64,000 bases of DNA, from the NCBI GenBank assembly GCA_027474245.1, contig CM049899.1:1212536-1276535 (forward strand). Reading direction: 5' to 3'. The DNA is from Spheniscus humboldti (lineage: Eukaryota). The notes below the pieces were generated by a model. That model searched no databases and was not told the DNA's origin. It saw only the letters and a list, made by a program, of their open reading frames with translations. Every line of letters starts with the position of its first letter. Position 1 is the first letter of the stretch. The translations under genes and the position numbers were made by a program. This document shows positions 21,701 to 46,172 of the stretch, piece by piece.

Positions 21701-24700
21701 CTGGTGTACATATCCAAATAAACTCAAATAGTGTAACTTGCAAAGAGCTATGTCAGCTTAAACTTTATCTGTAGTGCCCTACTGGATAACTGCAGAGCTG
21801 CGGATGCTCAGAAATACTGGGGCACAACTCTTGGCCTGCCTGCAATGTTCCTGGCTCTCTCAGCTATCTGGGCAGAAGTAGAAACTATTCTTGGTTTTAG
21901 AGCAAGACTGACTAGAGTTCAAATTTTCTTTTGCAGACTGACACCCAGAAGCTAAACCAAAACAAGCCACACCTGCGGATGAATGACTGCTAGGCATGTC
22001 CACACCAACAGACCTCTCCCAACACACACTTTGAGCAATTAATACCCCAAGTCAACATTTGAAGTTGAACCTGGCCACAAATTTTAAAACAATGTAATTT
22101 GGGGGTCAAACTGATGTAAGTCTTTTCTTCTTAAAAAACTCACAAACTGAAAGAAAGAAAACCACACACTCTTCTCTGCTACATTGGATATCACATTCCT
22201 TCAGTCAAGCTTTTATTGCATTTCAGAAATAGTATAACAAACCCCAACAGAAAATATCTCATCATTGCTTTTTCTCCTTAAAAAGCAACTCTGACCACCT
22301 GACTGCTCATTGCAATCAAAGGAAGATGTGACCTGACCCTTCAAGCATTCTGGATGCGTAGGTGGGACTAAACAGTGTTTGTGAATCAAGAACATGCATG
22401 CTCCTTGAGACAGGCAGGTCAAGTTTGCCACCAGGTCCCCACATCGGCATTTGCTAACACTGTTCAGCTTCGGGTACAACTGAGCTGCGTTCAGTTAACG
22501 TGAAAGCATCTCCTAGTAACAGCCAGTATCAACCCAAGAACTATAACGTAAATGGAAGAAAACTCAAACTGTGCCCCCTTCTCCTTACGCTGGGTTAGGA
22601 TTTGTGACAGGAATTTGATTCCACAGTTTGGAAAAGCTCCACGGTTGCAGCCAAAAGGATCTGGAGCTTCCTGGGTCTCAGAGTAATTCTAGAGCTAAAG
22701 TAGTGATAGGCATCAACTTTAGATCAGATAATACATGCCAACACTCATCACTGACCCAAGGCGGCAACCTCCTCCTGTCCTACCCAAGGGTTTAAAATGC
22801 AACACACTTTCTTCCTAAAACAGGACACTACCTTATTTATTTGTAACACCATTGACAAATTTCTTCCTTGAGATGGGACTAGGGATACATTACACAAGCA
22901 GTCAAGCCACTGGTTGGAAGCATTGGAGCCTTTTCGGTACTGTTTTATCACCACGGTTGGCATGAGAAGGAAAATGAAGGACACGAGAGATGGTGAGACA
23001 TTTAATCTACAATGGAGATAGCTATGGTGAACAAGTAAGGCTGAGACCAAGTCCTTTTTCTCAGGGGAAAAGTACACACCAACTAAATAACTGCTGAACA
23101 GACCAGTATAATTTAAAGTTATACAGGAAAAAAGATTTGAGGAACACAACATAAGAACTGACTACCGCAACACTTCTTTTGTATAGTACTAAAGTGGAAA
23201 CACACTACACAAGTGTATGTACTGCATATATATTTTATATAGACATTAATGTCTATATATATTTATATAGACATTATGTATTATAATAGTCATATATTTC
23301 TGTGCATATAAACACCTATAAAATCCAAACCTTTACTCTTCCTCTGGCCATACACATCTTTCACGTCAATGTACACCAAGAAGAATTCATAAAATCCAAA
23401 AGTAATTATCTACAAGATTCCACTAAAACCTGTAGCTAAGAAATATTTCGGAGAGACCGCCACAAAATTCATGAAGAATGCAGACAAAAATCACCAGCAA
23501 AGGAACATTAAAAGCACAATGTTCCCAAATCTGAATATATATACACACATTTTTTTGGAGATGAATCCTTAAGTTTTGCCCGTTAGATTATTTTTTAATA
23601 ATCTACTGAAATAGTTTTTGCCACTGGTATCAAACAGCACCTGGTTCCCAAGTCTCCAATCATCAAGATCATTAATTGCAAGTAGTTGTTTCTACAATTA
23701 CCCTGTTACATTTACCTGGACATGCTGAGGGTTGACAGCAGACAAGAATTGTGACCTGTGCTGGCACTTACTGCACCACTTCTGTACCGACATGATCAGA
23801 TGAATGCCAGAATTTCATCCGTCTTCATTCGGTGCAGCCATCCCATGAGATCCATCGCTGTCCGCCCCCAGGAAACACTGCTCATCCTCAAATACTCCGA
23901 CAGACTGCACCCCTAAGCAGGGCATTATTTTAGTTCTGAATCAGGTAAGCACAGCATCGAAGCAGAGCAATGAAAATGCCTTAGTTAACATTTACAAAGT
24001 TTGCAGCACACCAGGTGTTTTCCATCCCATTAACAACTTAGGACATACTCACCACTCTTGCATATTACGTGCTTTACGCGTGTCTGTGCATACGTACTGG
24101 CACATGTGCATGCATACCCCTACACTACTACATTTCTTTCCTCCCCTCTACTTTCTAGCACAGAGGTATCAAGCTCAATGTCAAGTTAAACACATGCAAG
24201 CAGTAAGGCACCAATTCACGTCAGACCATCAGATATTATCTTGGCATCCAAGCTAACACGCACATCACCACCCCGAGTCTCAAAAATAACAAGACTAACG
24301 TTTCATGAAACTTACTGTCAAGTGCCAGAGCTGCCACAATCTGAAGCGGCACTACGAAGGGAATTCTCATGTGCATCTCTCTCTCTCTTCCCCCCACCCC
24401 CCACTACTGTTTACCTACACTACCCGTAAACATCATTTTCCTGATGCAGTACTTTAACCCACATGTTTTCAGCACAGCAACAACAATCATAAGCAATAGT
24501 GCCTCCAGTTCTTTTGGGGACACTAAAAATAATGCAACTTTTTTTTCCCCCTCCAGACACCAGCGGTTATTGACGTTTCCCACCTCCTGGAACCAGAATC
24601 CAGTTGTTGTGGGCTACCTCTGGTAACCCACACCTATAAAACCAATGCTAGCTGCACCATTTATCAAGGCGAGCAAGCAAGAAGCAGTGCTGTGGCCAGA

Positions 24701-25075
24701 TTCAGTACAGTGTCCTATCAAGGGAGCCATGTGGAAGTACAGCTACAATCTCCCTGTAGATAAAGGAGCAGCAAGAAGGTCGCTTCCCAGGTCTCAGAGT
24801 AATTCTAGAGCAAAACCAAATCATCTTCAGATTTATGCTCAGATAATACATGCCAACACCCATCACAGACCCAGGGGAACTAACAAAGCAGCCCCCTTTG
24901 TACCTCACAGGGGACAGCAGGGCAGGAGAGGAGCAGCTGGGGAGCACACACCCAACCTCTAACTCTCAACAAGGGAGTGAGGGTTGTTACTCTTAATAAA
25001 AGCACAGCTGCGCTGAAATAAGCCCATACTTACACAGTCGCCTTTCCTTGTCCCATACAAAGCTATATGGGCCAC

Positions 25076-25609
25076 TGTCCTGGTTTCGGCAGGGATAGAG
25101 TTAATTCCCTTCCTAGTAGCTGGTACAGTGCTGTGTTTTGGATTTAGGATGAGAACAAAGTTGATAACGCACCCATGTTTTAGTTGCTGCTAGGTAGTGC
25201 TTACGCTAGTCAAGGACTTTTCAGCTTCCCATGCTCTCCCAACTGAGAAAGCTGCAGGTGCCCAAGAAGCTGGGAGGGGGCACAGCCAAATTGGCCAAAG
25301 AAACATTCCATACCATGTGACGTCATGCTCAGTACATAAACTGGGGAAAGCTGGCCAGGGGGGGCCGCTGCTCAGGGACTGGCTGGGCATCGGTCAGTGG
25401 GTGGTGAGCAATTGCACTGTGCATCACTTGCTTTGTGTATTATTATCATATTATCATCATTTTATTTCAATTATTAAACTGTTTTTATCTCAACCCACGA
25501 GTTTTTCTCACTTGTGCTCTTTCCCAATTCTCTCCCCCATCCCACCGGGTGGGGGGGAGTGAGCGAGCGGCTGCGTGGTGCTTAGTTGCCGACTAAGGTT
25601 AAACCACAA
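25076..25609 (+). mobile_element. Solo LTR, copy in unit 4
   Basis: Same sequence at a +20724 offset. Confidence 0.85.
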
Positions 25610-28600
25610 GAGCCACGTGTTTCTCCAAAAGTAACATGCTTGGCCATCAGGTTTTCTCACCGCGTCCTGTCACGGTGTCACCTTCAAAAAGCACCAACAA
25701 AGTGTCAGTTGTGGTGTCAGCTCAGGCGCTTTCCGTGCCCGAGGGTAATTTGGGCAACTCACCAGCAGTAAGTGCCCGTCTGGACACAGACCTTTCTCCA
25801 TCGACCCCGACTTGCTTCCTGGCCTGACAAAACCTCCCGACAAGGCTGAGGTGAACCACCACTGGCCCCTCCGACCAGCAGAAGACCCAGACCCCGCTGA
25901 GGGGGCCCGACGCAGACCCCGAGGCCTCCCCGGGGGCAGGCAGCCACCCAGGGCCACTAAAGCAGGGTCCTGCCAGGCACTGCCTGCTACCCTGCCCCGC
26001 GGCATGACGCTCCAATGCCTTCATTAATAACCATTTCAAATTCTCTCAAAACCCTTCTGCTACCTATTCTGACACCACTGTCTGAAGAAAGTTCCTACTG
26101 TATTTGCAAGCTGAAACACAGTCCTACAAGTTGTTCCCCGATTTTCATAATTGAACAGACTCACAGAATCATTTAGGTTGGAAGGGACTTCTTGAGATCA
26201 TCTAGTCCAACCCCACGTATGGAATTCTGCAATATTTTTTTTATTTTTATCAACGAGAGGATGTGTAATACATTCAATAATTATTTAATTTTTATTTCAT
26301 GATCTCAGATCAAATTAATTTTGAAGGATTACATTGCACTACCTACATACAATGACTTGTGATCTACGACTGCTGTGCCTAGGTACCCTTTTCAGCCAAA
26401 AGGGTACAAAGGCCACTAAAAAGTAAAGTCTGTAATTAGACACAAATACTGATTTCACACAACAGAATTCTCGATCATAAGCAGCCAAACGACAGCAGTT
26501 TTTTGGCTGTTGTGAGGACAAGTTACAATGAAATAATGTAACTCGCTCATTCATCAATCATATGAAGATACAACAGGAGAATTACATCAATACTATTTCC
26601 AAAACGGTCATTTTAGTCACATAATAGATTTGTAATATTCACTTATCTTACTACACTGCTAATCTACTATTTTGTACTTGTGATAACAGAAAAGTCTCAT
26701 TATATTTTCTCAAATTAATCTCTACATTTCAGTCTCCTGCTGAACTTCTCAGCTGGTTTTTGTTACCAGACCTCTCCAAAACCCTATTACTGGAGCTAAA
26801 TAGCAAATGTATCAATGTAACATCAAGTACAAGCCTGAGCATGCAAGCTGAGCATACACTGCCATGACTCCCCCGCTACTCACCTGTTGTCAATTTAACA
26901 CAAAGGACTCCACCTACTCTGACCAACTTCTCATGAAGTACCAAGATGGATCTGTAGCCAGAGGGATAACCAATTTCACTACTAACCTGTAAGACAGGGA
27001 CATACAAACTTCAGAAAGGGACACAAGATCAAGTACGCCTCTAGTAATGAAAATTAGATGGGTAATATAAATAGGCTATGGTAAAATAGGCTATCTGGAA
27101 GGAAAACCAAGGTACAGACGTATACTTTTAAATTGACTTGCTAAAAAGGGGAAGGCCTTCTTTGGCATGAAAATTGGCCATCTGATTGGCTATGCCATGA
27201 CTTCTAAAAAGCAAGCAGAAAAATTCTAGAGACAGGGAAATGCTTTAAGTCCAGAAGTGCCTCCTCTTTGCCTCGAACAGAGAAGAGGTTTGCCAGCTTC
27301 CCAAGTAACAGGGACTTTCCAGACTTCTCTAGGGTGGGAAGAAGGAAGGCTGCCTAATTTGGATTACTTAATACCTGTTTGGGTTGGGTTTTGTTCCCTG
27401 CCCCCCCACCCCCCACCAAATTATAACCTCCCAAGTCTCTGCCTGGCTTTCAGATCTCTCCACCTATTTGTTTGTTTACTTTAACTAAGGGACAGGCATT
27501 TGGCAAACAAGGAAGGTACATCAATGGGCATCACCGATGGATTTCTGACCAGTACACCCTGGTGTGATACCGGGAACGCCTGCACCATGACGGAGTGGTA
27601 AGGGGGAACACCCTCACCATCAGCTAAAGCACAGTGACACCACCTCCACTGTTCTTCCTCCAAGGAAGACTGAGCAAGGGATGTGTGGACTTCTGAAAGT
27701 CAGTCTAGATTATTATTATTATTGTATCATGCACCAATTATTAAGCATTTGGTCAGATCTGCAGAGGATCTAGGTGACTGAAAAGTCTAAGGAACTGAAA
27801 GTTTAGGCAATAGGAAAGCTATGCTCGTTGCTAGAAAATTCTGCGTAGCAGTAAGCCACCCTGATTCCCATAGTCCTTCTAGAATAAAGCAGCTCTAAGT
27901 ATAACTACAACCCTGTGGCCAGTTCTCATTCTACCAAGGAGCCTTAACATCAAGAGCCCGGCTGTCCCCATAGCAGCAGGTAGTGTCAGGTGACACAGGT
28001 GTCGGAAAGAAACTTTTATAGGCCATATGTGATGCTGGCTAATTTAAAATATCTCCACATAAAGAAAAACTCACCCATCCTGCATGTGATTCAGAACCAA
28101 ATCCTCCATCTGAGCTCATACAGGCAAAAAACCAAATCCTACTGCTTTCCCCACATCAAGAGCTTCCAGTTTTCCCTGCAAGGCAGAATAGCAACTAATG
28201 CACTGTATATCCTAACCAAGCTCACTACTGCAGAAGCTTCAGTAGTGCTAATGAGAAGAATCTGTACTTGTACAAGCGATGATATAGGCCTTACCAGAAG
28301 TGCCAAGATTGCTGCAGCGCTGAGGGAGAACCTTGTAGCTGTTTCTCCTAGAACGTAGGGGGGTAGGGGATGAAATAAGTAGGTTTTTTTTTTTTAACAA
28401 CAAAAATAAATTCAAATCACCATTGAAAATATGGAACAAAATGCTACAACCCCAGGTTTTACATCGAACAGAAAATAACCTAACTAAAAAGTGCCCCTGT
28501 ACTGCTTCCTTTTCCATCCCACTGATAATTTCCTCAATAATTGACAAGTGCACATTACAACTCCAGTGGTCTGTTTACTGCACATAAAAGAAAACAACTC

Positions 28601-31600
28601 CTTTTCAGCTGGTGTACATATCCAAATAAACTCAAATAGTGTAACTTGCAAAGAGCTATGTCAGCTTAAACTTTATCTGTAGTGCCCTACTGGATAACTG
28701 CAGAGCTGCGGATGCTCAGAAATACTGGGGCACAACTCTTGGCCTGCCTGCAATGTTCCTGGCTCTCTCAGCTATCTGGGCAGAAGTAGAAACTATTCTT
28801 GGTTTTAGAGCAAGACTGACTAGAGTTCAAATTTTCTTTTGCAGACTGACACCCAGAAGCTAAACCAAAACAAGCCACACCTGCGGATGAATGACTGCTA
28901 GGCATGTCCACACCAACAGACCTCTCCCAACACACACTTTGAGCAATTAATACCCCAAGTCAACATTTGAAGTTGAACCTGGCCACAAATTTTAAAACAA
29001 TGTAATTTGGGGGTCAAACTGATGTAAGTCTTTTCTTCTTAAAAAACTCACAAACTGAAAGAAAGAAAACCACACACTCTTCTCTGCTACATTGGATATC
29101 ACATTCCTTCAGTCAAGCTTTTATTGCATTTCAGAAATAGTATAACAAACCCCAACAGAAAATATCTCATCATTGCTTTTTCTCCTTAAAAAGCAACTCT
29201 GACCACCTGACTGCTCATTGCAATCAAAGGAAGATGTGACCTGACCCTTCAAGCATTCTGGATGCGTAGGTGGGACTAAACAGTGTTTGTGAATCAAGAA
29301 CATGCATGCTCCTTGAGACAGGCAGGTCAAGTTTGCCACCAGGTCCCCACATCGGCATTTGCTAACACTGTTCAGCTTCGGGTACAACTGAGCTGCGTTC
29401 AGTTAACGTGAAAGCATCTCCTAGTAACAGCCAGTATCAACCCAAGAACTATAACGTAAATGGAAGAAAACTCAAACTGTGCCCCCTTCTCCTTACGCTG
29501 GGTTAGGATTTGTGACAGGAATTTGATTCCACAGTTTGGAAAAGCTCCACGGTTGCAGCCAAAAGGATCTGGAGCTTCCTGGGTCTCAGAGTAATTCTAG
29601 AGCTAAAGTAGTGATAGGCATCAACTTTAGATCAGATAATACATGCCAACACTCATCACTGACCCAAGGCGGCAACCTCCTCCTGTCCTACCCAAGGGTT
29701 TAAAATGCAACACACTTTCTTCCTAAAACAGGACACTACCTTATTTATTTGTAACACCATTGACAAATTTCTTCCTTGAGATGGGACTAGGGATACATTA
29801 CACAAGCAGTCAAGCCACTGGTTGGAAGCATTGGAGCCTTTTCGGTACTGTTTTATCACCACGGTTGGCATGAGAAGGAAAATGAAGGACACGAGAGATG
29901 GTGAGACATTTAATCTACAATGGAGATAGCTATGGTGAACAAGTAAGGCTGAGACCAAGTCCTTTTTCTCAGGGGAAAAGTACACACCAACTAAATAACT
30001 GCTGAACAGACCAGTATAATTTAAAGTTATACAGGAAAAAAGATTTGAGGAACACAACATAAGAACTGACTACCGCAACACTTCTTTTGTATAGTACTAA
30101 AGTGGAAACACACTACACAAGTGTATGTACTGCATATATATTTTATATAGACATTAATGTCTATATATATTTATATAGACATTATGTATTATAATAGTCA
30201 TATATTTCTGTGCATATAAACACCTATAAAATCCAAACCTTTACTCTTCCTCTGGCCATACACATCTTTCACGTCAATGTACACCAAGAAGAATTCATAA
30301 AATCCAAAAGTAATTATCTACAAGATTCCACTAAAACCTGTAGCTAAGAAATATTTCGGAGAGACCGCCACAAAATTCATGAAGAATGCAGACAAAAATC
30401 ACCAGCAAAGGAACATTAAAAGCACAATGTTCCCAAATCTGAATATATATACACACATTTTTTTGGAGATGAATCCTTAAGTTTTGCCCGTTAGATTATT
30501 TTTTAATAATCTACTGAAATAGTTTTTGCCACTGGTATCAAACAGCACCTGGTTCCCAAGTCTCCAATCATCAAGATCATTAATTGCAAGTAGTTGTTTC
30601 TACAATTACCCTGTTACATTTACCTGGACATGCTGAGGGTTGACAGCAGACAAGAATTGTGACCTGTGCTGGCACTTACTGCACCACTTCTGTACCGACA
30701 TGATCAGATGAATGCCAGAATTTCATCTGTCTTCATTCGGTGCAGCCATCCCATGAGATCCATCGCTGTCCGCCCCCAGGAAACACTGCTCATCCTCAAA
30801 TACTCCGACAGACTGCACCCCTAAGCAGGGCATTATTTTAGTTCTGAATCAGGTAAGCACAGCATCGAAGCAGAGCAATGAAAATGCCTTAGTTAACATT
30901 TACAAAGTTTGCAGCACACCAGGTGTTTTCCATCCCATTAACAACTTAGGACATACTCACCACTCTTGCATATTACGTGCTTTACGCGTGTCTGTGCATA
31001 CGTACTGGCACATGTGCATGCATACCCCTACACTACTACATTTCTTTCCTCCCCTCTACTTTCTAGCACAGAGGTATCAAGCTCAATGTCAAGTTAAACA
31101 CATGCAAGCAGTAAGGCACCAATTCACGTCAGACCATCAGATATTATCTTGGCATCCAAGCTAACACGCACATCACCACCCCGAGTCTCAAAAATAACAA
31201 GACTAACGTTTCATGAAACTTACTGTCAAGTGCCAGAGCTGCCACAATCTGAAGCGGCACTACGAAGGGAATTCTCATGTGCATCTCTCTCTCTCTTCCC
31301 CCCGCCCCCCACTACTGTTTACCTACACTACCCGTAAACATCATTTTCCTGATGCAGTACTTTAACCCACATGTTTTCAGCACAGCAACAACAATCATAA
31401 GCAATAGTGCCTCCAGTTCTTTTGGGGACACTAAAAATAATGCAACTTTTTTTTCCCCCTCCAGACACCAGCGGTTATTGACGTTTCCCACCTCCTGGAA
31501 CCAGAATCCAGTTGTTGTGGGCTACCTCTGGTAACCCACACCTATAAAACCAATGCTAGCTGCACCATTTATCAAGGCGAGCAAGCAAGAAGCAGTGCTG

Positions 31601-32289
31601 TGGCCAGATTCAGTACAGTGTCCTATCAAGGGAGCCATGTGGAAGTACAGCTACAATCTCCCTGTAGATAAAGGAGCAGCAAGAAGGTCGCTTCCCAGGT
31701 CTCAGAGTAATTCTAGAGCAAAACCAAATCATCTTCAGATTTATGCTCAGATAATACATGCCAACACCCATCACAGACCCAGGGGAACTAACAAAGCAGC
31801 CCCCTTTGTACCTCACAGGGGACAGCAGGGCAGGAGAGGAGCAGCTGGGGAGCACACACCCAACCTCTAACTCTCAACAAGGGAGTGAGGGTTGTTACTC
31901 TTAATAAAAGCACAGCTGCGCTGAAATAAGCCCATACTTACACAGTCGCCTTTCCTTGTCCCATACAAAGCTATATGGGCCATGTGTTTCTCCAAAAGTA
32001 ATATGCTTGGCCATCAGGTTTTCTCACCGCGTCCTGTCACGGTGTCACCTTCAAAAAGCACCAACAAAGTGTCAGTTGTGGTGTCAGCTCAGGCGCTTTC
32101 CGTGCCCGAGGGTAATTCGGGCAACTCACCAGCAGTAAGTGCCCGTTTGGACATAGACCTTTCTCCATCCACCCTGACCACGGGGCAGACTTCCCGCCTC
32201 GCTTCCCGGTCTGACGAAACCTCCCCGCGGAAAGGCCTCTAAGAAAACCTCCTGCCGAGGCTGAGGCGAACCACCAGCTCGCCGCTGAC

Positions 32290-32760
32290 CACCCGGACCA
32301 GTCAGAGGCCGAGACCCCGCCGAGGGGTCCGGCCTCCCCAGTCCGGCCCGGCCGTGCTCAGCTGCACTGCCGGGTCCCAACGCACCTCTGGATGTGGAGC
32401 GACCGGGGCCGAAGCCCCCGCGCCGCCCCAGGTCTGCGGAGGCCGGCGGGGCCCTCTCCTCGCCGCGCGGTGCGCAGCACCCACCTCCTCCGCCTCCCGC
32501 GCCGGAAAGAGCGTTCGGCCGCGGGGCGGGGAAGAGGTAGCTCCCGGCAGGACCCCGCTATAGCTGCCCTTGCCGTTCGCCTGACCCGCGCTGGCGGTCG
32601 GGAAGGACCCATCGGTCAGGCGGGAGGCCCTGTGGCAGGGAAGGACCCCGCCCGGAAGCCGGGTCGCCACACTGACCGTCGCGGCTCTGTGGAGAAGCCG
32701 GTCGTAGGGCTCAGCCCCAGAGCAGCTGAGGGCAAGTGCGCTTCCCTTCAGAAATAAACC
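32290..32760. promoter_or_regulatory. Orphan CpG island immediately right of the array end. Candidate promoter, owner gene not identifiable in the window.
   Basis: CpG density is very high (many CGCG and GCGC). No convincing coding exon is found. A consensus donor CTGCTG|GTGAGT lies on the minus strand at about 32126-32137. A TATAAA is present at about 32862. Confidence 0.5.
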
Positions 32761-35584: not shown

Positions 35585-35656
35585 TTAAGCCTTATATTTG
35601 CCAACATGTTCACGAGCTATGATCATCCTTTGAATCTGAGCAGTTCCCTCATAAAT
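35585..35656 (-). CDS. ACADM: ACADM exon 12 coding part ([23 protein letters not shown], stop TAA at 35587-35585)
   Basis: Acceptor cttttcag. The encoded peptide matches human [23 protein letters not shown] and ends with a stop codon. Confidence 0.9.
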
Positions 35657-37104
35657 CTGAAAAGAAGAATTAAAATAATGTTAGCTGATCATGTAAAAAA
35701 ATACTTTAACAGATCTTTCTACGCTTGTAAACCTTCATAGCACTAATTCAGTGTGGATTAGGATGTGCAGAAAGACAGAGAAAACTGAAAAAATTCCAGT
35801 GCGACTTGAGTAACTACAGTGGGCTAAATGCAATAAACCACATATAAGATACTGAGAGACAGTCTTGTTCTCTCAGATGCTCTCATCAAAACTCAGTAAG
35901 GTTCTCATGAAATTAACAGACATAGTGGGTGAAGAAGGATGGGGAAAATGTCTTATCTGGGGAAGGAAATACATAATTTACATTTTACAAAGTAGGTTTT
36001 GAAACGGTGGGTGGAGGGGAGGAGGTGACCTGTGCTGAAAGTGTATTTTCTTTGACTAGCCTTTCAACACCATAGCACGTGTTCTCTTTCATCCATTTAC
36101 TGCCTTCAACACACTATTTATTTATTTATTTATTTTTAACCATGTATTCTTGCTTTTTCCTCTAGAAACATTCTGCATCTTCCCTCTGTTCTATTTGGCT
36201 TGCTGGCAGCAAAGCCAGAGATAATAAAATTCTTGGCTAGTGAGAATACTTTTCATTTTTAAGTCAGCTGTAAGAGAAATTTCAACTACCTAGGCTCTTA
36301 AGAATGACAACTGTTATAACTAACATCACAGATCATGGTCCACATGCATATCTTGATATCATCTATTTTGATGTGTTTTATCTAGTCATTATTAATGTCA
36401 GAAAGAGATGAAAAGATAAAGATTACTGGTTTTCCTGAACAGAATTAAATCATTCTTGCTGAATAAAGAACTGTAGCACAGAGAAGAATTATGACATGGA
36501 ATAATTTCTTGGTAATAATACTGCAGAAAAAGATCTGGGGATTATGGGTGACTATGGGCTAAACATGAGTAAATATGAGCACGTTTTGTTTTGTTTTGTT
36601 TTTTTAAAAGGCTAATCACTGCCAGTTGCGCCACACTTCTGTTAATACAACATATGCAAGATAATTAATCCACGATACTCAGTGCTGTTGATATCTCAAC
36701 TGAAGTAATCTGCCCAGCTTATGATACCAAAGTTTCAGACAGAAGGTTTAGAGCACAGCAAGAAGTGATGAAGAGAACAGTATTATACGTAAACCTCTAC
36801 CAATGCCAAAGCAGGCATTGGTATTTTGATCGGTGTTTTCTACAGTGTTTTTTTCTAAAAGTTCAAAAGCTTCAAAATGAAAAGTCCAAGAATTTCAAAG
36901 AGTTACCACATCAGGAAAAACAAAACACCACTAAATTTATTTCTCTTGTGTAGGTTAAGTTGTTGATCTAATACCAAGAGTTTTGTGTGCAAGAATTTGC
37001 CTGATTTGAATGCCCTTTCTTTAAATGGAAGGATTATTGCTCTCATCCTCAAAACTTTTTTTGTATGTGTAAATCATGATTTCAAATAAGTAGCCATTAG
37101 TTTA

Positions 37105-37407
<303 letters not shown>

Positions 37408-38098
37408 CTACGAATGATGAAATAAACTAAGTTAACATTGCCTGCTTAAAATTTTGTGAAATCCAAGAAAAATATAGTCATCTTAATTTCTTAATTTGTG
37501 AATTCAACACACTCAGGAAATTGTACTTGGCGAGTTCTACAGAATTTGGATCAGGCTTTCGTAACTGTATGTTGAATTAGACTTCTAAGTTTTTAACTCT
37601 GAAATCTACTTAGTCACAGGGATTAAGTGTTGAATTATGAAGTTGCGCTTTACTTTTTATGAGATCTGTATTTAGTTTGACGTTTATTGATGTTTCTTTA
37701 AGCATGGTAAGCAGTGTGATTGGCAATGCATTCTATTAGTATTAATACTGAGAGTCTTGTTTCACGTACCTCAGGGAGGTTTTCTCCTTCCCTGAAAATC
37801 CCTGTTCATTAGAATTGAAGGACTTAAGTATGTCCTGACAGTACATGAGTTTCAGGGTTTTGGGCAGAGTTTTCTTTGTGATTTTACTATTACCATCAAT
37901 AAGTTATTGATGAATCCCAGGACTTACTGCATAGCTAGATTTACTTAGATAGTGCTAACCTATATACTTGAAAACCCAAGCAATGGTAGAGGTATAATAA
38001 ATCATGTCCTAAATATCAAGGAACAACCTTGAAAATTAACTAGTAGTGCATCTGGTATGAAAACATAGCTTTTTGATATATTGATTTTTATATATTTA

Positions 38099-38272
<174 letters not shown>

Positions 38273-38276
38273 TTAC

Positions 38277-38417
38277 GGGTGGTCTGGTCTTATCAAAAGC
38301 TCCCATTGCGATTTTAAAGCCAGCTCCCTCAGCTATCAATACATTTTCTTTTGGAACTCTCACATCTTCAAAGACAATACCTCTTGTATCAGAGCAGCGC
38401 TGACCCATATTAATTTC
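38277..38417 (-). CDS. ACADM: ACADM exon 9 ([47 protein letters not shown])
   Basis: Acceptor ttttcag, donor gtaagt. The peptide is visible in the 38229-38528 minus ORF of the track. Confidence 0.9.
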
Positions 38418-39299
38418 CTGAAAAGGGAAATTTACAGAGGTGCAACTAAATTGGATTCTTCCAAGGTACAACACATTTTCATTCTTCAGTTTACTCAAAG
38501 CATAAACAAAGCTCCCCCCCCCAAACACTTCAGTTTTATCTAAAAATCACCATATACACAACAAATACTAGTTTTGCATTTACAGACCAGCATGCCCTTA
38601 ATTTGTCAAAGCTGGGCAGTTTACTTTCTCTGTATGTGAAATTAATTCTGTAGCTTTAATCACTCGTTTGTCTGTTTCTAGTTCAATTACATCCTTCAAG
38701 ATGGGAGAGGAAAAGGTAAAGATTCCAAAATGCAAGCAGAAGTAAAATACAGCTGTACTACAAACAAATAAATGAATGAGATTTTCAAGTTTTCCGATTC
38801 CTTTCCTAGTGTTCAACGTTCAATTTTGCCTGCTACTAAAAATAGTACTTTCTTTGTTTCCTCCCTCCCTTCCCCCCCCCCCAAAAGAGAGCTAGCACCA
38901 ATGTTTCCAAGGCCTATTCCTTGAGCAGGAGTAGCTAAAATTAAAGCACACTGTGTGTTTATGGTTAAAGTTGTCCACCTTGCTTCTTACACTTTCAAGG
39001 CATGCTACTTCACCTTAACTGGCACTTGTCAATTAAATGGTTCTCTAAGATTCTTTTGCAGCTGTGCAAAGTCTTTAGACTATTCAAAATAATTCATTAT
39101 CTGAATTAATAAAATTATAATTATTAAGTATGTCTTATGGATAGTTTCTGTATGCTGTGAAAACGAAAGGATTGTACATGAGCACATGAAAATGTTCAGT
39201 TGCTTAACAGTCTTTTTTCTTTAATGGCAATCTGTTGCATTATTGGTTTAGAAGTGAATAATAATTCCTGGCTTGTCAAATAAGAGATATGGTGTTCAC

Positions 39300-39408
39300 C
39301 TTTCTTCCAATTTGGATTCCAGGGCTATTTGCTTCCACTATGAATCCAGTAAAGGCTTTGCTTGCAGGAGCTTTTGGATCTGGATTGGTACGAGCTAGCA
39401 AAAAATAC
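39300..39408 (-). CDS. ACADM: ACADM exon 8 ((W)[36 protein letters not shown])
   Basis: Acceptor cactag, donor gtgaac (a weaker donor). The encoded peptide matches human [37 protein letters not shown]. Confidence 0.85.
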
Positions 39409-40615
39409 CTAGTGTAAAACAAAGACGAGGGGAGTCAGTTTATCCTCACAATTAATAATCAGATACTTTTTTAGCTAAAAGGTTGAATGTTTTTATGTGT
39501 GCTTGTACCATATAATAGATCTATCAGTAAGTTAACAACCCTTTTTTCTTGTCCCTTCCAAAAATAAACTGAGAGGGAGTGAGGGAGAGGAGTGTCAGTG
39601 CATCTCTTGCCGCAAAAGTCAAGATTTAATAAAATTACTTCAGATCAACATGCAAAAGTTCTCCATCTTTTCCATGTATTGTAAGTCTTAATATTACAAT
39701 CAGCTTCATGAATAGTACAAAAGAAACCTATTCACAGCACATACATAAAAATTATTGCTTAGGAAATACAGTATTCCATGTAAAATGTTATGTTATCCTC
39801 TTGATTTCAAATATCTTAATTTTATTCTTCAAAGCGTAAGTTGTAGGTAAGTTTTTTGTTAGAAATTAAACAGTTGTAAATCACATTTATGGTGTTCAGT
39901 AACAACAAAAGATAGCCAGTAGATTCTCTTTGATGGTTATGCCTTGAACAAGGAAATAAATAATAAGAAAATTCAACTTTATACATAAATGTATAAAGTT
40001 TTTCCTCTTGAATTAAAAAGAATTTACGTGTTGGGGATGAGCATGATCTTATGTGAGACATGATGAAAGAGTTCTATATTGTAAAGCATGTTCCATAGAC
40101 ACTACAGCAAAATCTGGATTCTTTGACACTTGGAAAATTTCTTCCCCTTAAGAATATAAAATGTAACACCACAATCCTAGACCTTTTCTGTCTTCACTAG
40201 AAGTGAGAGATGTTTCCAGTAGAATCTGAAGCAACTGATCTCGGTCACCACACCCACAAAGCAAGATCACTTGTAATATAAGCCTCTTGAGTACTTTGCA
40301 AGTTGACTCTTACTGTTGCTGCCCTTCCCTGAAGAGAAAGCAGAATTAATTTTGTTTGATAGCAGCAAAATTTGAGAGGCATTCTTGAATGGAATTGTCA
40401 TGTCATCGCTCAATTTCCTTTCTAGGCATTGCACAGCACTGAGACTGCTTTCTTATACCTTGTCCTGTTAAATTGGGCACAGATTAAAGTGCAGTGTGGT
40501 GAACCATAATAAACGTTCAGATTTGTAAGAGATCTTTAAAGAAACACTAGTATCTAACTTGGAGGGGGACACACCTCCGTTTAGAACACAGTAACAGAAA
40601 ATGTAACGTGAGTCA

Positions 40616-40945
<330 letters not shown>

Positions 40946-41540
40946 TTAACTTTCCTTATAAATCCGTAATAATACTTAAAATTGTCTTTAATGATAAACA
41001 GAACCATTCTGTAACTTTTACTAAAAGTCATCACTTCCTTATGCTTCACAAACTCCGATATGAAAGCTGAGGACCTTTAAAATCTGAAAATAGGAGCAGA
41101 GAGTAACATTCTATGGTTACCGTGCTCTTCATTTTATGAGGCTTAGTTGTTCAGATTTTAATGCATTGCACATGCATCTTTACTTCTTTCTATGTAACAA
41201 GTAGATAATATTTAAGATTCATAAATGCAGTTTAATGCCCACCTGAGTTGAGTTCGTGCTTATATAAACCTTGCATTTTTCTTAAACTCCTACACCTTCT
41301 CTTGAAAGTGAATTAAAAGGTATTCATTTTCAGTAAGTGACTTAGGATGGTTTTCCAGGTAATACCTTCTATTTGCTTATTGAATGCATCTAATTCAATG
41401 TTCCTTGACTTTCAGTAAATGCCACTCTTTATTTACAAACCAAAACAGGCTAAGTTGTGAGTAGATATCAGTGTTTTAAACAAACCAACCTGATTAATAC
41501 AATTTAGGAACAGTCTACAGCGTTCCTAAGTTATACTTAC

Positions 41541-41621
41541 ACACATCATTGGTTCCTCTGTCATTCTTCCTAAGTATTTTTTCTGCTGCTGCTCATTTCC
41601 TGCAATGATTACTGGCATTTG
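41541..41621 (-). CDS. ACADM: ACADM exon 6 ([27 protein letters not shown])
   Basis: Acceptor ctttcag, donor gtaagt. Length 81 nt, phase 0. The encoded peptide matches human [27 protein letters not shown]. Confidence 0.9.
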
Positions 41622-41707
41622 CTGAAAGAAAACATTTAGACCATTAATCCATTTTTTTAAAGGGCACAGACTCTAGTTTAAAGGAGGTAAGAAAAGACAG
41701 AACTTAC

Positions 41708-41808
41708 CCCTAGGGAGTTTGCCTCAATGGCAGTTTGAACCCCTGTACATCCGTAAGCTAACTCTTCCGTAATAAGGCATGCTTCAAAACTGCCGAGGCC
41801 AAGACCAC
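41708..41808 (-). CDS. ACADM: ACADM exon 5 ((G)[33 protein letters not shown])
   Basis: Acceptor atttag, donor gtaagt. The encoded peptide matches human [33 protein letters not shown]. Confidence 0.9.
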
Positions 41809-44167
41809 CTAAATTTGAAATATTTGACTATAATGAGTTTAAATTGAAACATATTAGTGATTTACAAAAATTAATTATCGAAAACATATTCCCCCATGTA
41901 CATTTGATTGTGCACTGTGTTTGATTGGACATCCCCATGCAAGGTTTTTAACTAAAGTTTTGTCAGATTAGTAACGGATGACTTAAAAACGACACCTTGC
42001 AGCTCCAGGGTGTAGTGTGCTTGAGGTGGGACAAGCTGCACAAAATGGCAAGAATGTACCACTAGAATCTTTTGACTACTTTACATCTGAGAATTTTCTT
42101 AGGAGTTCGTAGGAAGCAGAGAAAGGGCCACAAGGGCTCCTGAGCTACCACAGCACTTAGGAATGAAAAAAAACCATATCAGTCAGAAAACCAACCTAGT
42201 AACCTGTTTCTGACAGAAGCCAACACTTTGGGAAGTGCATAAAAATACAGTAACAATATACTATATATATACAGTAACTAAAATACAGCAATACTCCCTC
42301 AAAATATTTTCTCCAGCCTTCAGGTGACTTCCTCAGCCAAAAGGATCTTTGGTATCTTTGTTAGCTAGCCCTTGACAGACATTTCTTCTCTGAATTTACC
42401 CAGTCTCTTTTTGAACCTATGTTCAATTTTAGCATCAATATCATCCAGGGGCAATGAGTTTCACAAATTAACTACACACTGAGTGTAGAACCATCTCCTT
42501 TCATTTATTCTGAACCTGCTGTCTGCTGACTTCATTTGATGCCTTCTAGTTGTGCTGAAGGGGACAATGGGCTATCAATCCCTTTTCACATGGTCCGTGA
42601 CACTGGCGTTTTAGGCATTTCTCATACAGAAGCTGTTCTGTATCTTTTATCATCTTTGTCATCTTTTTAGGAACCTCCTCCTTCTGAGGTGGAAGGATCA
42701 GACTGCATAATGAATTAAAGAGCCAAGTGCCTCTTTGGATTTGAGAAGCAGCATAACTATGGCTTCTGCTTTTTTCTTCATTCCCTTCTTAATTTCTGAC
42801 CTTAAATTTATGGTTTTGACCACTTGTGGGCATTATGCTGACATCTTCACAAAAATACATATTATAACCCCCAAAATCTCTTTTTTTTCCAGAGGTAGTA
42901 ACTTGTTCAGATGACACCATTTTATCTGGGAAGTTTGGATTGCTTCTTTCCTTTCTTGTGTGCATCATTTTTCCTATTTTGAATGTCATCTGCCATTTTA
43001 ACAGTCACCCAGTTTCACGACCTTCTCCTACAGCTCTTCGCACCAGCTTCATCTTTTCTATACTGAATAACTTAGTATTATCAGTAAACTCTATGAACTC
43101 ACTATTGACCTCCTTTTCCAGATTATTTATACGTATACCAAATAGCGCAAGCGCCAGCAAGACTGCACTGCTGATTTTTCCACTATGAAACCTGATGATT
43201 TTTCAGATTCATTTTGGAAGTTCGAGCATTTTATACCAACCAGGCATCCCTTGTTCACACACTTATTAGCTACTTCAGAGAACTGCAGTTATTTTTTGTG
43301 CCATGACTTCCTTTTACAAAAACCCTTCTCTAGCATATCATGTTTATGTGTGTCCACTCTATCTCTACTTCATCTTCCTTGCTCTTAATTTACATGGTGT
43401 ATCAGGCTTACTGGTATGTATTTTCCCAGCTCTCCCTTGGAATGTAAAGGAATGGTGTCCAATTTGTCACTTGTAAGTTTTAATTTAATAACCAAGTGAT
43501 TACACATTGCAATAGTCCAGCTATTTCTGAGTTTCCCTAGAATTTGTGACTGACTAAATGTTATCCTCGCAATTGCTCCTTTTGCCTCTTTGTTCCTTAA
43601 CCTTGTTAATTACATTTTTGATACAAGATACACCCTCTGATGAGTCTTCAAAAAAAGTAGGGTCTGCTGTGGACACTTCCCCAACTTCTTTTTCAGGTAA
43701 TATAAATGCAAAAAAGAAAATCTAAAATTTAACATTTTTTCCATGGTTAGTCATATACCTAAGCACTGCCAAAGCACTGCTGTACTGCACATCATCTAAA
43801 CTGGAAGACTGTCCTTCTGGAATAAACTCTTAAATTGCTCCAGCCTGTGTCAGAGACTAGATCAAAATATGTCTATTCTAATTTCTCTGCCTCATCAGCT
43901 GACACAGTGTACCAGGGTAACATTAGGCAGTTGTAATCATGGTAGAAAATCTGGTCATAAATTACTAAATCATGATCTGTCCAATCTGTTGCCTGATTGC
44001 ATCCACCCCTAGTAACATGTGTATGTGTCCACCTGCCTACTGATTAAATTTAGAGTATTCAAGTATGCAACTGTTCATTTTATACAGAATCCATAATTAC
44101 ACATATAAATCTCCTCTAAGGCCTTTTCTTTGTTTTATTTTACAGACTAAAAAGAATGTTTACTTAC

Positions 44168-44237
44168 CACAGCTTTCTGGTATGTGTGAATTTATAAGAC
44201 CAAGTTCCCAAGCTCGTTTTATGAGCGGAAGAGGATA
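44168..44237 (-). CDS. ACADM: ACADM exon 4 ([23 protein letters not shown] + g)
   Basis: Acceptor tttcag, donor gtaagt. The encoded peptide matches human [24 protein letters not shown]. Confidence 0.9.
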
Positions 44238-44346
44238 CTGAAATAAACAGGGAAAATCACCTTCTGATTCATCACAGTTAACATTCTTAATTTTATGCAG
44301 GTTAAGATAAAAATCTGTTTTTTCCCCTACTGCACAGTAGATTTAC

Positions 44347-44444
44347 CTCTCCACTTTTGTCATAATGTGCAGCAACAGGAATAATTTCCTCCACAGCAAA
44401 CTTACGAGCAGTAGCTTGAAACTCTTTCTGTTCATCAGTAAGTT
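44347..44444 (-). CDS. ACADM: ACADM exon 3 ((E)[32 protein letters not shown])
   Basis: Acceptor taatag, donor gtaaat. The encoded peptide matches human [32 protein letters not shown]. Confidence 0.9.
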
Positions 44445-45263
44445 CTATTAAAAAAAGAAAGTAAAAAATAAAGTCACAGCTCTCTTTAATCTTGCCAGTT
44501 GTCAGACTATGAGAAAAGAAAAAACAAGTCTCAGTTCCTTCCAGGACAATTCAAACTGCCAGCACCTACCTTCCTGAGCCTCTCCAGAAACCAAAGAAGC
44601 TCAACTCTCTCTTTCTCTCTAGAGAAAACCTGCACTGATCTCTAATGAACACCCACAATGCACAAAATTGTCCATAAAATATTGAAAATGGAGTAGGAAG
44701 TACATGTAACATAAAATGCATTACCAAAAGAAACGAGAAGCATGCTGTGCTAATTAAATGAAGGAGGAGATGGAGGCAGATAAATGTTCCTTATTTGACA
44801 ATTCTGGCTACTCAGTTTCAAACATCTAGCTGCTGACCCACTAAATTTGCTTATATGCTTTACATATATAATATGCCAAGATGAGGATTAATTTCTTTAT
44901 AACATTCCTTCATAACGAAGTTCAACTAAGACTACATACAGTTATTTTAACGTTTTAAAACCCAGTGTGAGGTAATTATTCAAAGCTAGGGCAACTTTGG
45001 CAATAAAAAAGCTCAAGACAGACATTATTTAAAAAAAAGAAGGAAATCTCATAAATATCACACACATACCTGGCTTTCCTGAGCTGGAGAAGAAAGTAAT
45101 TTTGGTTTTCAAATGCTTTTAAAAAAAAGAATAGAAATCTGTTCCGAATAAATACCTTCATTGTAAATTCATACTGAAATGCAATACAGTTGTTCTGGTT
45201 TTTTTCCTAACTCTGCAATTTGTCCTTAACTGTTTTATTTCTTTCAAAAACTGCAATACTTAC

Positions 45264-45360
45264 CAAAGCTAAAGCCAGCTCCAGGTTTGCTTATATGTGT
45301 GTTTTGAGCAGGTTTACTAGAATGTGATCTCCATCCACGCCACGCAATGGTTCGGAGCAT
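45264..45360 (-). CDS. ACADM: ACADM exon 2 (MLRTIAWRGWRSHSSKPAQNTHISKPGAGFSF + g)
   Basis: Acceptor ttttgcag, donor gtaagt. The encoded peptide matches human [29 protein letters not shown]. Confidence 0.85.
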
Positions 45361-46127
45361 CTGCAAAAGAAAAAAAAGAACATGAGGTGTAAGATCTTTG
45401 CAGCTCAAGTCTCATAAAGCTACTAGCCTGACTGCAGCACAAGTGCACAACGAAGCAGGAAGAACACAGGCAAGAATAGGTATCAACACAGTAAAAAAAA
45501 TATTTTCAGGGAACACTGAAAACATCTATGAAGTTAAAAGGTGAAGAAATGCAGGAAGACCACTGCTAGGCATAGAAGTGCTGAACACTGAAATGTTAAG
45601 CGAGTGTATTAATAGTTCAGGATTGTATTTTCCAGTAGGCAATATATTGCTTATTTGGAGTTTTCACAAGTCACAGCCATTGCAAAATGGTGTATTGAGT
45701 TCTTATGTAAGTTTTACCTTCTTGCCTAACTGCTACCACCATTATATAAACAAAACAATTAAACAATACCAACAAACATCTAGAAAGACCTCGATCCTCC
45801 CAAACGTTTTGTACTTTATTTTATGTGGAAACAGACAAGAAGAAGATGAGGTTGAGAAAAAGCCAGGTAATTGTAATCACCTTTTTTTTTTTTAAGGATG
45901 ATCAGTCGTATACAGCTTTGCCACCAAAAAGTTTTGTCTAAACTAGAAAAAGTCCTGAGTTCAAAGTAATGCTAAAGATGATACCCTAGATGAAAGAAGC
46001 TGTCAAATTTATGCTAGAGAACTTAAGCCGATCATGGCTTTCATATACCAGAGTGGTATGCAAGGTCAACACCGAAGGTTACTCTGAAAAAATCCTACAC
46101 TGCCCGCAACAAATGGACATATGAACT

Positions 46128-46172
46128 GGGGTGTGGGTGTGTGGGGGTGTGTGTGTGTGTGTTCATACCTGG
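46128..46172. repeat. (GT)n / GGGTGT microsatellite
   Basis: gggtgtgggtgtgtgggggtgtgtgtgtgtgtgttca. Confidence 0.85.

What the first reader, a model, noticed from the sequence alone, without database searches (positions are those of the whole stretch)
31960..32340. The array boundary coincides with the LTR empty site, and identity steps down from ~99.9% to ~96% to ~75% across it
The terminal partial copy matches the other units essentially perfectly up to 31982. This is exactly where the solo LTR sits in every full unit. The site here is uninterrupted (gggcca|tgtgtttctcc). Immediately beyond, the sequence is still homologous to the post-LTR segment of the units but shows about 8 mismatches in 200 bp, mostly CpG transitions. 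Over the next ~150 bp homology falls to roughly 75% with indels and then disappears into the CpG island. This fits an older duplication whose true breakpoint lies near 32330. It was followed by LTR insertion into one copy and then recent amplification or concerted homogenisation of LTR-bearing units. The LTR heterology would stop conversion tracts into the terminal copy.
Basis: partly seen in the sequence, partly recalled or inferred. Interest (0 to 1): 0.7.

Follow-up and report, generated by a model that had tools for sequence, protein, structure and literature searches.

The report
LTR-bounded edge of bird gene-fragment array
In a waterbird genome, a retroviral LTR that landed in one copy of an ancient duplicated gene fragment (a decayed front end of RABGGTB carrying two SNORD45 snoRNAs) now marks exactly where near-perfect copy-to-copy homogenisation stops; this is a clean, datable example of a known process, not a new one.

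Summary
The window starts inside a tandem array with a 6908-bp period. Copies are at least 99.95% identical up to 31982. Every full unit has a 536-bp solo LTR there with a 5-bp target-site duplication (GCCAC). The last copy has the uninterrupted site (GCCAT). Beyond it, identity falls in steps: 2/118 differences, then 5/77, then about 78% with indels.

King penguin and Oriental stork loci have the same duplication junction with no LTR and no step at that site, so the duplication is ancient. A copy-1 deletion shared with falcon suggests it is as old as the falcon/waterbird ancestor.

The "~96%" zone is not the age of the duplication. Up to about 32100 it is a former gene-conversion domain: 16 sites group by species and 0 by ortholog. 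Right of 32118 the pattern is purely orthologous.

The old breakpoint is complex. A 63-bp inverted piece of 32509-32570 sits in each unit.

The terminal copy's body was overwritten by array-type sequence. It carries a 1.84-kb segment that copy 1 lacks in all three outgroups.

The units are decayed 5' RABGGTB fragments with conserved SNORD45 genes. This is a new example of a known kind and is moderately interesting.

The parts
1..31982 (.). Tandem array with a 6908-bp period. The window holds at least 4.6 copies and the array runs off the left end. Each unit is X (about 6.0 kb) + solo LTR + Y (about 0.3 kb promoter-proximal remnant + junction).
   Evidence: Lag-6908 identity is about 100% with 6 mismatches. 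The tandem-repeat finder gives internal markers spaced 6908 bp apart.
25076..25611 (+). Solo LTR, 536 bp, TGTCCTGG...ACCACAAGA. Identical copies lie at 4352-4887, 11260-11795 and 18168-18703. It has a TATA-like CATAAA at 25335 and ATTAAA at 25473. It is antisense to the RABGGTB remnant.
   Evidence: The 4 copies have 0 differences. A family member at 52171-52757 is 87% identical and has its own 5-bp TSD. The LTR is absent from both copies in penguin and stork.
25071..25075 (.). Left copy of the 5-bp target-site duplication GCCAC. The right copy is at 25612-25616.
   Evidence: Read directly from the sequence.
31979..31983 (.). Empty LTR site in the terminal copy, GCCAT. The T at 31983 is a private C>T change at a CpG; the window unit and both penguin copies have C.
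   Evidence: The same CpG changed independently in stork copy 2.
25951..31982 (-). Terminal X, the body of the promoter-proximal copy. It is 99.95% identical to array X (3/6032). At 28386 it keeps the ancestral T, where all array units share a derived G.
30021..31861 (-). 1.84-kb segment holding the exon remnant aa 42-101 and the B-type SNORD45. It is present in every window copy, including the terminal one. It is deleted from copy 1 of penguin, stork and falcon with the same junction.
31983..32100 (-). Tier 1 of Y': 2/118 differences from unit Y, both private to the terminal copy. This is a former conversion domain in which sites group by species.
32101..32177 (-). Tier 2 of Y': 5/77 differences. 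It is the transition zone; the first ortholog-pattern site is at 32118.
32178..32335 (-). Tier 3 of Y': about 78% identity in aligned columns. Deletions of 20, 28 and 8 bp and CpG-to-TG/CA losses in the unit copy are shared with penguin copy 2. This is old paralog divergence.
25612..25910 (-). Y in the last full unit, the truncated promoter-proximal remnant homologous to 31979-32335. It recurs at -6908 intervals.
25950..26012 (.). Inverted 63-bp copy of CpG-island positions 32509-32570, part of the old duplication junction. It is present in the penguin and stork junctions too, since their alignments run through it.
   Evidence: 48.2 bits; maximum of 200 shuffles 28.3.
32336..32720 (.). CpG island (47 CpG in 385 bp, observed/expected 0.87). 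It is the promoter region of the RABGGTB-derived transcription unit and exists only next to the terminal copy.
29580..29664 (-). SNORD45, 'A-type', 68.3 bits. There is one per unit (also at 1948, 8856, 15764, 22672).
   Evidence: It is 95% identical to falcon against 77-82% in the flanks.
31696..31779 (-). SNORD45, 'B-type', 56.5 bits. There is one per unit (also at 4064, 10972, 17880, 24788).
   Evidence: It is 87% identical to parrot against 60-62% in the flanks.
31945..32010 (-). Remnant of the first RABGGTB coding exon (aa 16-37, 68% identical to the parrot protein). The LTR site lies inside it. There is an in-frame stop and a frameshift just upstream.
30632..30811 (-). RABGGTB exon remnant aa 42-101 with an in-frame stop, 65% identical to the parrot protein.
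28072..28354 (-). Frameshifted RABGGTB exon remnants aa 137-195. These are the last recognisable exons before the unit junction.
35585..47131 (-). Intact ACADM gene: 12 exons, canonical splice sites, 422 aa. It is the upstream neighbour and anchors the synteny.

Best explanation
The array is built from an ancient tandem duplication of the 5' part of RABGGTB. The duplicated piece runs from promoter-proximal sequence through the exon for aa ~158-195 and includes two intronic SNORD45 genes. It lies just downstream of ACADM.

The duplicated copies lost coding capacity, but they kept exchanging sequence by gene conversion and/or unequal crossing-over. The domain in which exchange succeeds has shrunk stepwise from the promoter-side edge, and each step coincides with a heterology:
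- In stork it reaches about 32285.
- In the common ancestor of the window species and penguin, 20-, 28- and 8-bp deletions arose in copy 2. The domain now ends at about 32100-32117 in both species.
- In the window lineage only, an ERV inserted into the first-exon remnant of a downstream copy and was reduced to a solo LTR. This cut the remaining ~135-bp homogenised strip off from the 6-kb body.

LTR-bearing units were then amplified and/or homogenised to near identity. Array-type sequence also overwrote the body of the promoter-proximal (terminal) copy, but it could not pass the LTR without importing it. So identity drops at 31982/31983.

Shown here: the anatomy, the order of events relative to speciation, and the direction of transfer into the terminal copy.

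Inferred: the molecular mechanism. It could be non-crossover conversion ending at the heterology. It could also be one unequal exchange confined to the 121-bp island between the old deletion breakpoint at 31861/2 and the LTR site.
For: Boundary, TSD and empty site.

Same junction and no LTR in penguin and stork.

Site patterns: 16 species-type and 0 ortholog-type sites in 31862-32117, then 0 and about 20 in 32118-32345, with shared indels.

No step at the empty site in the outgroups: penguin 2/121 vs 2/118, stork 0/121 vs 4/118. The window has 3/6032 vs 2/118, p about 0.002-0.004.

Lineage-specific conversion limits next to lineage-specific indels.

Direction of transfer: the 1.84-kb segment is absent from copy 1 of penguin, stork and falcon with an identical junction, but present in the window's terminal copy.

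Array coalescence: the array units share a derived base at 28386 that the terminal copy lacks, so they coalesce with each other slightly later than with the terminal copy.

Literature: elevated divergence at the edges of duplicated blocks, caused by failing conversion, is a described phenomenon (PMC2588116).
Against: - The step across the LTR site in its first 118 bp rests on only two substitutions, one of them at a hypermutable CpG.
- At that divergence, the exchange endpoint can be placed only within roughly 200 bp to the left of the LTR, not exactly at it.
- The left end of the array, the total copy number and the position of the functional RABGGTB are outside the window.
- Copy number in penguin and stork beyond copy 2 is unknown, so a lineage-specific increase in copy number is not proven. 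Only lineage-specific near-identity is shown.
- The source species is unidentified, and read-level support for the assembly could not be checked.
Confidence: 0.78

Rival explanations
1. The ~96% segment reflects the age of the old duplication, with its true breakpoint near 32330. There would have been no exchange right of the LTR site since the duplication.
For: Identity does step 99.95% -> 96% -> 75%. Direct homology ends at about 32328-32335.
Against: The duplication predates the penguin and stork splits, yet 31983-32100 is more alike within species (2/118) than between orthologs (10-12/118). It also has 9 species-pattern and 0 ortholog-pattern sites. An inverted fragment of 32509-32570 lies at the junction.
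Confidence: 0.05
2. There is no barrier effect. The array was recently amplified outward from the terminal copy's own X, or from a two-copy state. The coincidence of the amplification or recombination endpoint with the LTR edge is chance or microhomology (GCCAC).
For: All X copies, including the terminal one, are nearly identical. Exchange endpoints cannot be resolved better than about 200 bp. The 5-bp TSD provides microhomology.
Against: The terminal X carries a segment that the ancestral copy 1 lacked, so sequence flowed into it from copy-2-type units at some point. A random endpoint within 6 kb has less than a few percent chance of landing within 200 bp of the LTR. In penguin and stork, homogenisation runs straight through the same site when it is empty.
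Confidence: 0.1
3. Selection rather than heterology sets the boundary. The terminal copy's first exon and promoter-proximal sequence are functionally constrained as the snoRNA-host promoter, so incoming conversion from decayed Y copies is removed by selection.
For: The CpG island and CpGs are retained only in the terminal copy, while units lost 5 CpGs and the terminal copy none in 32170-32335. The terminal promoter region is 95.8% identical to penguin copy 1, against 92% for unit Y vs penguin copy 2. The snoRNAs are conserved.
Against: In 31983-32169 it is the terminal copy that carries the private substitutions (31983, 32002, 32154), not the units. Penguin and stork tolerate conversion across this stretch. 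Selection does not predict a boundary at the LTR edge to the base.
Confidence: 0.05
4. Assembly artefact: near-identical 6.9-kb units were over-expanded or mis-joined by the assembler, and the boundary is a join between haplotypes or paths.
For: Units 1 and 2 are 100% identical over 6908 bp. No reads are available to check.
Against: The units differ at a few specific sites, in a pattern consistent with real copies (10142, 10580, 18753 and terminal-private sites). Two independent outgroup assemblies show the same copy1-junction-copy2 architecture. The Y/Y' difference is paralogous whatever the copy number.
Confidence: 0.05

Closest known systems
Concerted evolution of tandem duplicates with conversion domains bounded by insertions or deletions. 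The classic example (from my own knowledge) is the human alpha-globin X/Y/Z homology blocks separated by non-homologous segments, together with the proposal that Alu-type insertions end conversion between globin duplicates. The general pattern of diverged block edges is described in Drosophila by Osada & Innan 2008 (PMC2588116).
   Same: Paralogs are more alike within a species than orthologs are between species. The duplication demonstrably predates speciation. There is a sharp switch from homogenised to diverged sequence at a heterology, and divergence is elevated at the edge of the duplicated block (PMC2588116).
   Different: Here three successive limits can be ordered on a species tree: stork about 32285, penguin plus window about 32100-32117, and window 31982. 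The last limit is tied to a dated, lineage-specific solo LTR whose empty site is visible in a paralog and in two outgroups. The duplicate is a non-coding gene fragment, not a functional gene pair.
Solo LTR of an endogenous retrovirus. The 5-bp target-site duplication is, from general knowledge, typical of ERV-L/class III elements.
   Same: It has a 5-bp TSD and TG...CA-type termini: the unit copy is TG...GA and the second copy CG...CA, each one substitution away from the canonical form. It has a dispersed family member, internal TATA-like and poly(A) signals, and precise empty sites.
   Different: No internal provirus or second LTR is available, so the family was not identified by name and the insertion cannot be dated by LTR-LTR divergence.
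Tandemly repeated intronic C/D snoRNA host units, such as the mammalian SNORD115/SNORD116 clusters (from my own knowledge).
   Same: The units are repeated, each carries C/D snoRNA genes in what were introns, the host exons are non-coding, and a single upstream CpG-island promoter is present.
   Different: Expression was not tested. The units derive from a decayed partial duplicate of the ancestral host gene RABGGTB. The copy number seen is small (at least 4.6), and each unit is interrupted by an antisense solo LTR.

Membership tests
Solo LTR (endogenous retrovirus) | Flanked by a short direct target-site duplication, with a precise empty site elsewhere | tested here: met
   GCCAC flanks the insert on both sides in all 4 units. 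A single GCCAT/GCCAC is present in the terminal copy and in both copies of penguin and stork.
Solo LTR (endogenous retrovirus) | Member of a dispersed repeat family with defined TG...CA termini | tested here: met
   A second copy at 52171-52757 is 87% identical, ends ...ACCACAACA and has its own TSD AATAC. The unit copy ends ...ACAAGA, one substitution from CA.
Solo LTR (endogenous retrovirus) | Assignment to a named ERV family or class through internal gag/pol or a curated repeat library | not testable with these tools
   No repeat library is available and no internal region is in the window. The class III guess rests only on the TSD length.
Concerted evolution by gene conversion or unequal crossing-over | The duplication predates speciation (shared junction and shared derived indels in at least 2 species) | tested here: met
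   The same X-junction-Y structure, the inverted piece and the copy-2-specific sequence are found in penguin and stork. The 20/28/8-bp deletions are shared by window and penguin.
Concerted evolution by gene conversion or unequal crossing-over | Paralogs within a species are more similar than orthologs between species over the same columns | tested here: met
   For 31862-32100, within-species differences are 0-4 per ~120 bp and between-species differences are 8-26 per ~120 bp. There are 16 species-pattern sites and 0 ortholog-pattern sites.
Concerted evolution by gene conversion or unequal crossing-over | Direct evidence for the mechanism (conversion tracts vs crossovers) from polymorphism or pedigree data | not testable with these tools
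   Only one haplotype per species was available.
SNORD45 (Rfam RF00279) C/D box snoRNA | Score at or above the curated gathering threshold over the full model | tested here: met
   10 hits score 68.3 or 56.5 bits against a gathering score of 42, over model positions 1-72 of 72. Orthologous hits are found in penguin, stork, falcon and parrot.
SNORD45 (Rfam RF00279) C/D box snoRNA | Purifying selection relative to the flanking intron, and expression | tested here: inconclusive
   Conservation exceeds the flanks: 95% vs 77-82% to falcon, and 87% vs 60-62% to parrot. Expression could not be tested.
Functional RABGGTB gene | Intact open reading frame across the exons, about 90% identical to vertebrate orthologs | tested here: not met
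   Exon remnants are 52-68% identical to the parrot protein, with in-frame stops and frameshifts. Only the region up to about aa 195 is represented. The intact parrot gene gives 83-100% per exon.
CpG island promoter | Length over 200 bp, G+C over 50%, CpG observed/expected over 0.6 | tested here: met
   32336-32720 has 47 CpG in 385 bp, observed/expected 0.87. The 1-kb window 32001-33000 is 62% G+C. Promoter activity was not tested.

The most novel reading that the evidence does not exclude
The decayed 5' RABGGTB duplicate has become a dedicated non-coding snoRNA host, driven by the retained CpG-island promoter. In this lineage its unit, with two SNORD45 genes, has been amplified into a young tandem snoRNA cluster kept homogeneous by selection for snoRNA dosage. 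That would be a bird counterpart of mammalian tandem snoRNA clusters caught at birth, with the LTR-bounded edge as a by-product.
Probability: 0.2. Interest if true: 0.6.

Novelty: new member of a known kind. Interest (0 to 1): 0.4.

Why it matters
Heterologies are thought to end concerted evolution between duplicates, but most examples are inferred from a single genome. At this locus the same site is seen empty in a paralog and in two outgroup species, where homogenisation crosses it. It is seen filled in one lineage, where homogenisation stops at it. Two older limits also track older indels. This makes the locus a compact natural experiment on how insertions shrink conversion domains.

The locus also documents an old, previously unremarked partial duplication of RABGGTB next to ACADM in several bird orders. 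Its exons decayed while its intronic SNORD45 genes stayed conserved, which bears on how snoRNA host genes become non-coding.

Tried and rejected
1. I first labelled the window as Oriental stork, because its ACADM fragment matched a Ciconia boyciana protein at 100%. The stork locus itself is only 84-91% identical at the DNA level, against 95% for king penguin, so I dropped the label.

2. I tried to identify the species through the exact ACADM protein. I reconstructed a 422-aa product. The contig look-up would not accept a spliced product, and the exact sequence is not in the protein collection.

3. I tried to reach the functional RABGGTB, or the far end of the array, through penguin RABGGTB P0207 and stork ACADM P0001. 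Neither is on record.

4. My early idea that a minus-strand GTGAGT at about 32125 is the exon-1 donor of an 81-bp intron was not pursued. The parrot exon shows the first coding exon to be continuous through this stretch.

5. I considered that the 96%->75% gradient was only a CpG-density effect. CpG loss in the units is real in 32170-32335, but the site-pattern switch and shared indels show a real difference in history.

6. The literature search on SNORD45 and RABGGTB found only human host-gene listings and nothing on birds.

7. The ORF scan of 48-64 kb showed CR1 LINE fragments only.

Full report
**1. What is at the coordinates**

The window begins inside a tandem array with a 6908-bp period. 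Identity at that lag is complete except for six single-base differences. It ends exactly between 31982 and 31983.

Every full unit carries an identical 536-bp element at this phase: 4352-4887, 11260-11795, 18168-18703 and 25076-25611. The element begins TGTCCTGGTTTCGG and ends AAACCACAAGA. It is flanked on both sides by GCCAC. The last copy has a single GCCAT at 31979-31983.

A second, 87%-identical member of the same family lies at 52171-52757. It ends ...ACCACAACA and has its own 5-bp duplication, AATAC. The element is therefore a solo LTR with a 5-bp target-site duplication, and the terminal copy is a true empty site.

**2. The identity steps**

The terminal X (25951-31982) differs from the adjacent unit at 3 of 6032 positions. 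The sequence after the LTR in the units (Y, 25612-~25910) aligns to 31979-~32335.

- Ungapped BLAST gives 96.0-96.5% over 200 bp, then 75% over 88 bp.
- A gapped alignment gives 5/191 differences for 31979-32169. For 32170-32335 it gives 14/107 differences plus five indel blocks.

The steps are statistically real. X vs the first segment gives p=1.3e-6, and the first vs the second segment gives p=8e-4.

In the first segment all five differences are transitions, but only two are at CpG sites. In the second segment five sites are CpG in the terminal copy and TG/CA in the units, and none go the other way.

**3. What the repeat unit is**

Rfam finds ten SNORD45 genes on the minus strand, two per unit, scoring 68.3 and 56.5 bits against a gathering score of 42. 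A local tblastn places an intact ACADM on the minus strand at 35.6-47.1 kb. It also places RABGGTB-like exon remnants on the minus strand of every unit:

- aa 16-37 at 32010-31945; this remnant spans the LTR site
- aa 42-101 at 30811-30632, with an in-frame stop
- frameshifted pieces for aa 137-195 at 28354-28072

Nothing beyond about aa 195 is present. In a parrot, the order is ACADM, an intact RABGGTB with exons 83-100% identical to the query protein, then MSH4.

The units are thus decayed copies of the 5' part of RABGGTB. The CpG island at 32336-32720 (observed/expected 0.87) is the ancestral promoter region. In gene orientation, the 'terminal' copy is the first, promoter-proximal one.

**4. 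Outgroups**

The window's ACADM fragment matched a Ciconia boyciana protein at 100%. However, the stork locus (L005) is only 84-91% identical to the window at the DNA level. The king penguin locus (L001) is about 95% identical, and stork vs penguin is 82-88%. The source is therefore an unidentified bird closer to the penguin than to the stork. Its reconstructed 422-aa ACADM is not in the protein collection.

Both outgroups show the same architecture: CpG island, Y', copy 1, the same junction, Y, then copy 2 directly. Neither copy has an LTR. The LTR insertion is therefore specific to the window lineage, and the duplication is older than the stork split.

**5. Site patterns across the boundary**

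I made a four-way alignment of the window terminal copy, the window unit with the LTR removed, and penguin copies 1 and 2.

- In 31862-32117, 16 variable sites group the two copies of each species together. None groups orthologs.
- In 32118-32345, none groups by species. About 20 sites group the terminal copy with penguin copy 1 and the unit with penguin copy 2, as do the 20-, 28- and 8-bp deletions.

So everything left of about 32100 has undergone concerted evolution in both lineages since they split. Everything right of 32118 has not.

In stork, the two copies stay nearly identical as far as about 32285, and copy 2 lacks those three deletions. It still shares the copy-2-specific sequence at 32295-32335. 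The limit of homogenisation has therefore moved inward at least twice before the LTR arrived, each time next to new indels.

**6. Is the step tied to the LTR?**

Paralog differences immediately left (31862-31982) and right (31983-32100) of the site are:

| Species | Left of site | Right of site |
|---|---|---|
| Penguin | 2/121 | 2/118 |
| Stork | 0/121 | 4/118 |
| Window | 0/121 (3/6032 over all of X) | 2/118 |

Given the X rate, two or more differences in 118 bp has P=0.0017. Seven or more in the first 195 bp has P=1.5e-11.

The two differences in the first 118 bp (31983, 32002) are both private to the terminal copy. The first is the last base of the target-site duplication, at a CpG that also mutated independently in stork copy 2.

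There is a caveat. At about 1.7% divergence, the exchange endpoint can be placed only within roughly 200 bp to the left of the LTR.

**7. Direction of transfer**

A 1.84-kb segment (30021-31861) holds the aa 42-101 exon remnant and one SNORD45. It is missing from copy 1 of penguin, stork and falcon, with the same junction sequence. It is present in copy 2 of penguin and stork, and in every window copy including the terminal one.

The deletion is thus ancient and specific to copy 1. This also implies that the duplication predates the falcon/waterbird ancestor. The window's terminal X must descend from copy-2-type, array sequence.

Only 121 bp separate that old deletion breakpoint from the LTR site. 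A single unequal exchange confined to this island would give the present structure. So would a conversion tract ending at the LTR.

At 28386, the four array units share a derived G where the terminal copy keeps the ancestral T. The other variants among units are new CpG transitions.

**8. The old breakpoint**

Direct homology ends at about 32328-32335. But unit positions 25950-26012 are an inverted copy of CpG-island positions 32509-32570. The match is 78% identical and scores 48.2 bits, against a maximum of 28.3 in 200 dinucleotide shuffles. The penguin and stork alignments run through this junction.

The original event was therefore complex, or was followed by a local rearrangement. It involved sequence at least as far as 32570.

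**9. Function of the units**

The A-type SNORD45 is 95% identical between window and falcon, against 77-82% in the flanks. The B-type is 87% identical to the parrot copy, against 60-62% in the flanks. The A-type scores 66-68 bits in copy 1 of falcon, stork and penguin. It is degraded in the parrot's intact gene, at 29.9 bits.

This fits retention of the decayed duplicate as a snoRNA host under the surviving CpG island. Expression was not testable here.

**10. Comparison with what is known**

Elevated paralog divergence at the edges of duplicated blocks, attributed to failing conversion there, has been described (PMC2588116). From my own knowledge, conversion domains bounded by insertions or deletions are classic in the globin clusters.

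This locus is a new and unusually well-resolved example of that kind. It is not a new kind of system. The RABGGTB-derived, SNORD45-bearing array in birds appears not to have been described in the searchable literature.

**11. Verdict**

Its core is right: an older duplication, a later LTR insertion, recent homogenisation, and the LTR as the limit.
- Three points are wrong: the dating logic for the 96% zone, the simple breakpoint, and the CpG claim for the first 200 bp.
- Interest is moderate (0.4).

Noticed in passing
window 1948-2032, 4064-4147 and equivalents every 6908 bp (10 copies); L001, L002, L004, L005: There are two SNORD45 paralogs per unit on the minus strand. Both are conserved well above their flanks across bird orders, while the surrounding RABGGTB exons are decayed. 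The higher-scoring paralog is degraded (29.9 bits) in the parrot's intact RABGGTB. The decayed duplicate may survive as a snoRNA host.
   Followed up: partly
L002 (Falco cherrug) 22630-24391; L001 25261-25398; L005 26434-26877; L004 (Amazona guildingii) 6011-22227: A decayed 5' RABGGTB copy lies directly downstream of ACADM in falcon, stork, penguin and the window species, with the same 1.84-kb deletion junction. The parrot has the intact gene there and no decayed copy. This points to an ancient partial duplication, with loss or collapse in parrots or in that short-read assembly.
   Followed up: partly
window 25950-26012 vs 32509-32570: A 63-bp inverted fragment of the CpG island sits at the duplication junction, about 40 bp past the end of direct homology. 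This suggests a template-switch type origin, or a later local inversion and deletion.
   Followed up: partly
window 52171-52757: A second solo LTR of the same family is present. It is 87% identical, has a 14-bp and a ~56-bp insertion relative to the array LTR and a divergent central region, and has a 5-bp TSD AATAC.
   Followed up: partly
window 54687-55397, 57007-59199: These are CR1-like LINE reverse-transcriptase ORF fragments, duplicated locally. The G+C-rich 51-64 kb region also holds simple repeats: (CCTTC)x40 at 61888-62089, 41- and 50-bp minisatellites at 60095-60355, and ATGATTCT repeats at 55600 and 59263.
   Followed up: no
L005 = C. boyciana CM067939.1:393405-426341; L001 = A. patagonicus CBFEYL010000041.1: NCBI names the stork and penguin genes 'ACADM-like'. 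The stork locus is on a chromosome-level record of only 1.76 Mb. Whether these species have a second ACADM locus was not resolved.
   Followed up: no
window 31983 and the aligned position in L005 copy 2: The CpG formed by the last base of the target site (CACGTG) mutated to TG independently in the window's terminal copy and in stork copy 2. This is a reminder that the first 'boundary' mismatch lies at a hypermutable site.
   Followed up: yes
window 44339-44341: The penguin 'isoform X1' ACADM-like model reads through the intron between exons 3 and 4. The equivalent read-through is frame-broken in the window, so that isoform is probably an annotation artefact.
   Followed up: no
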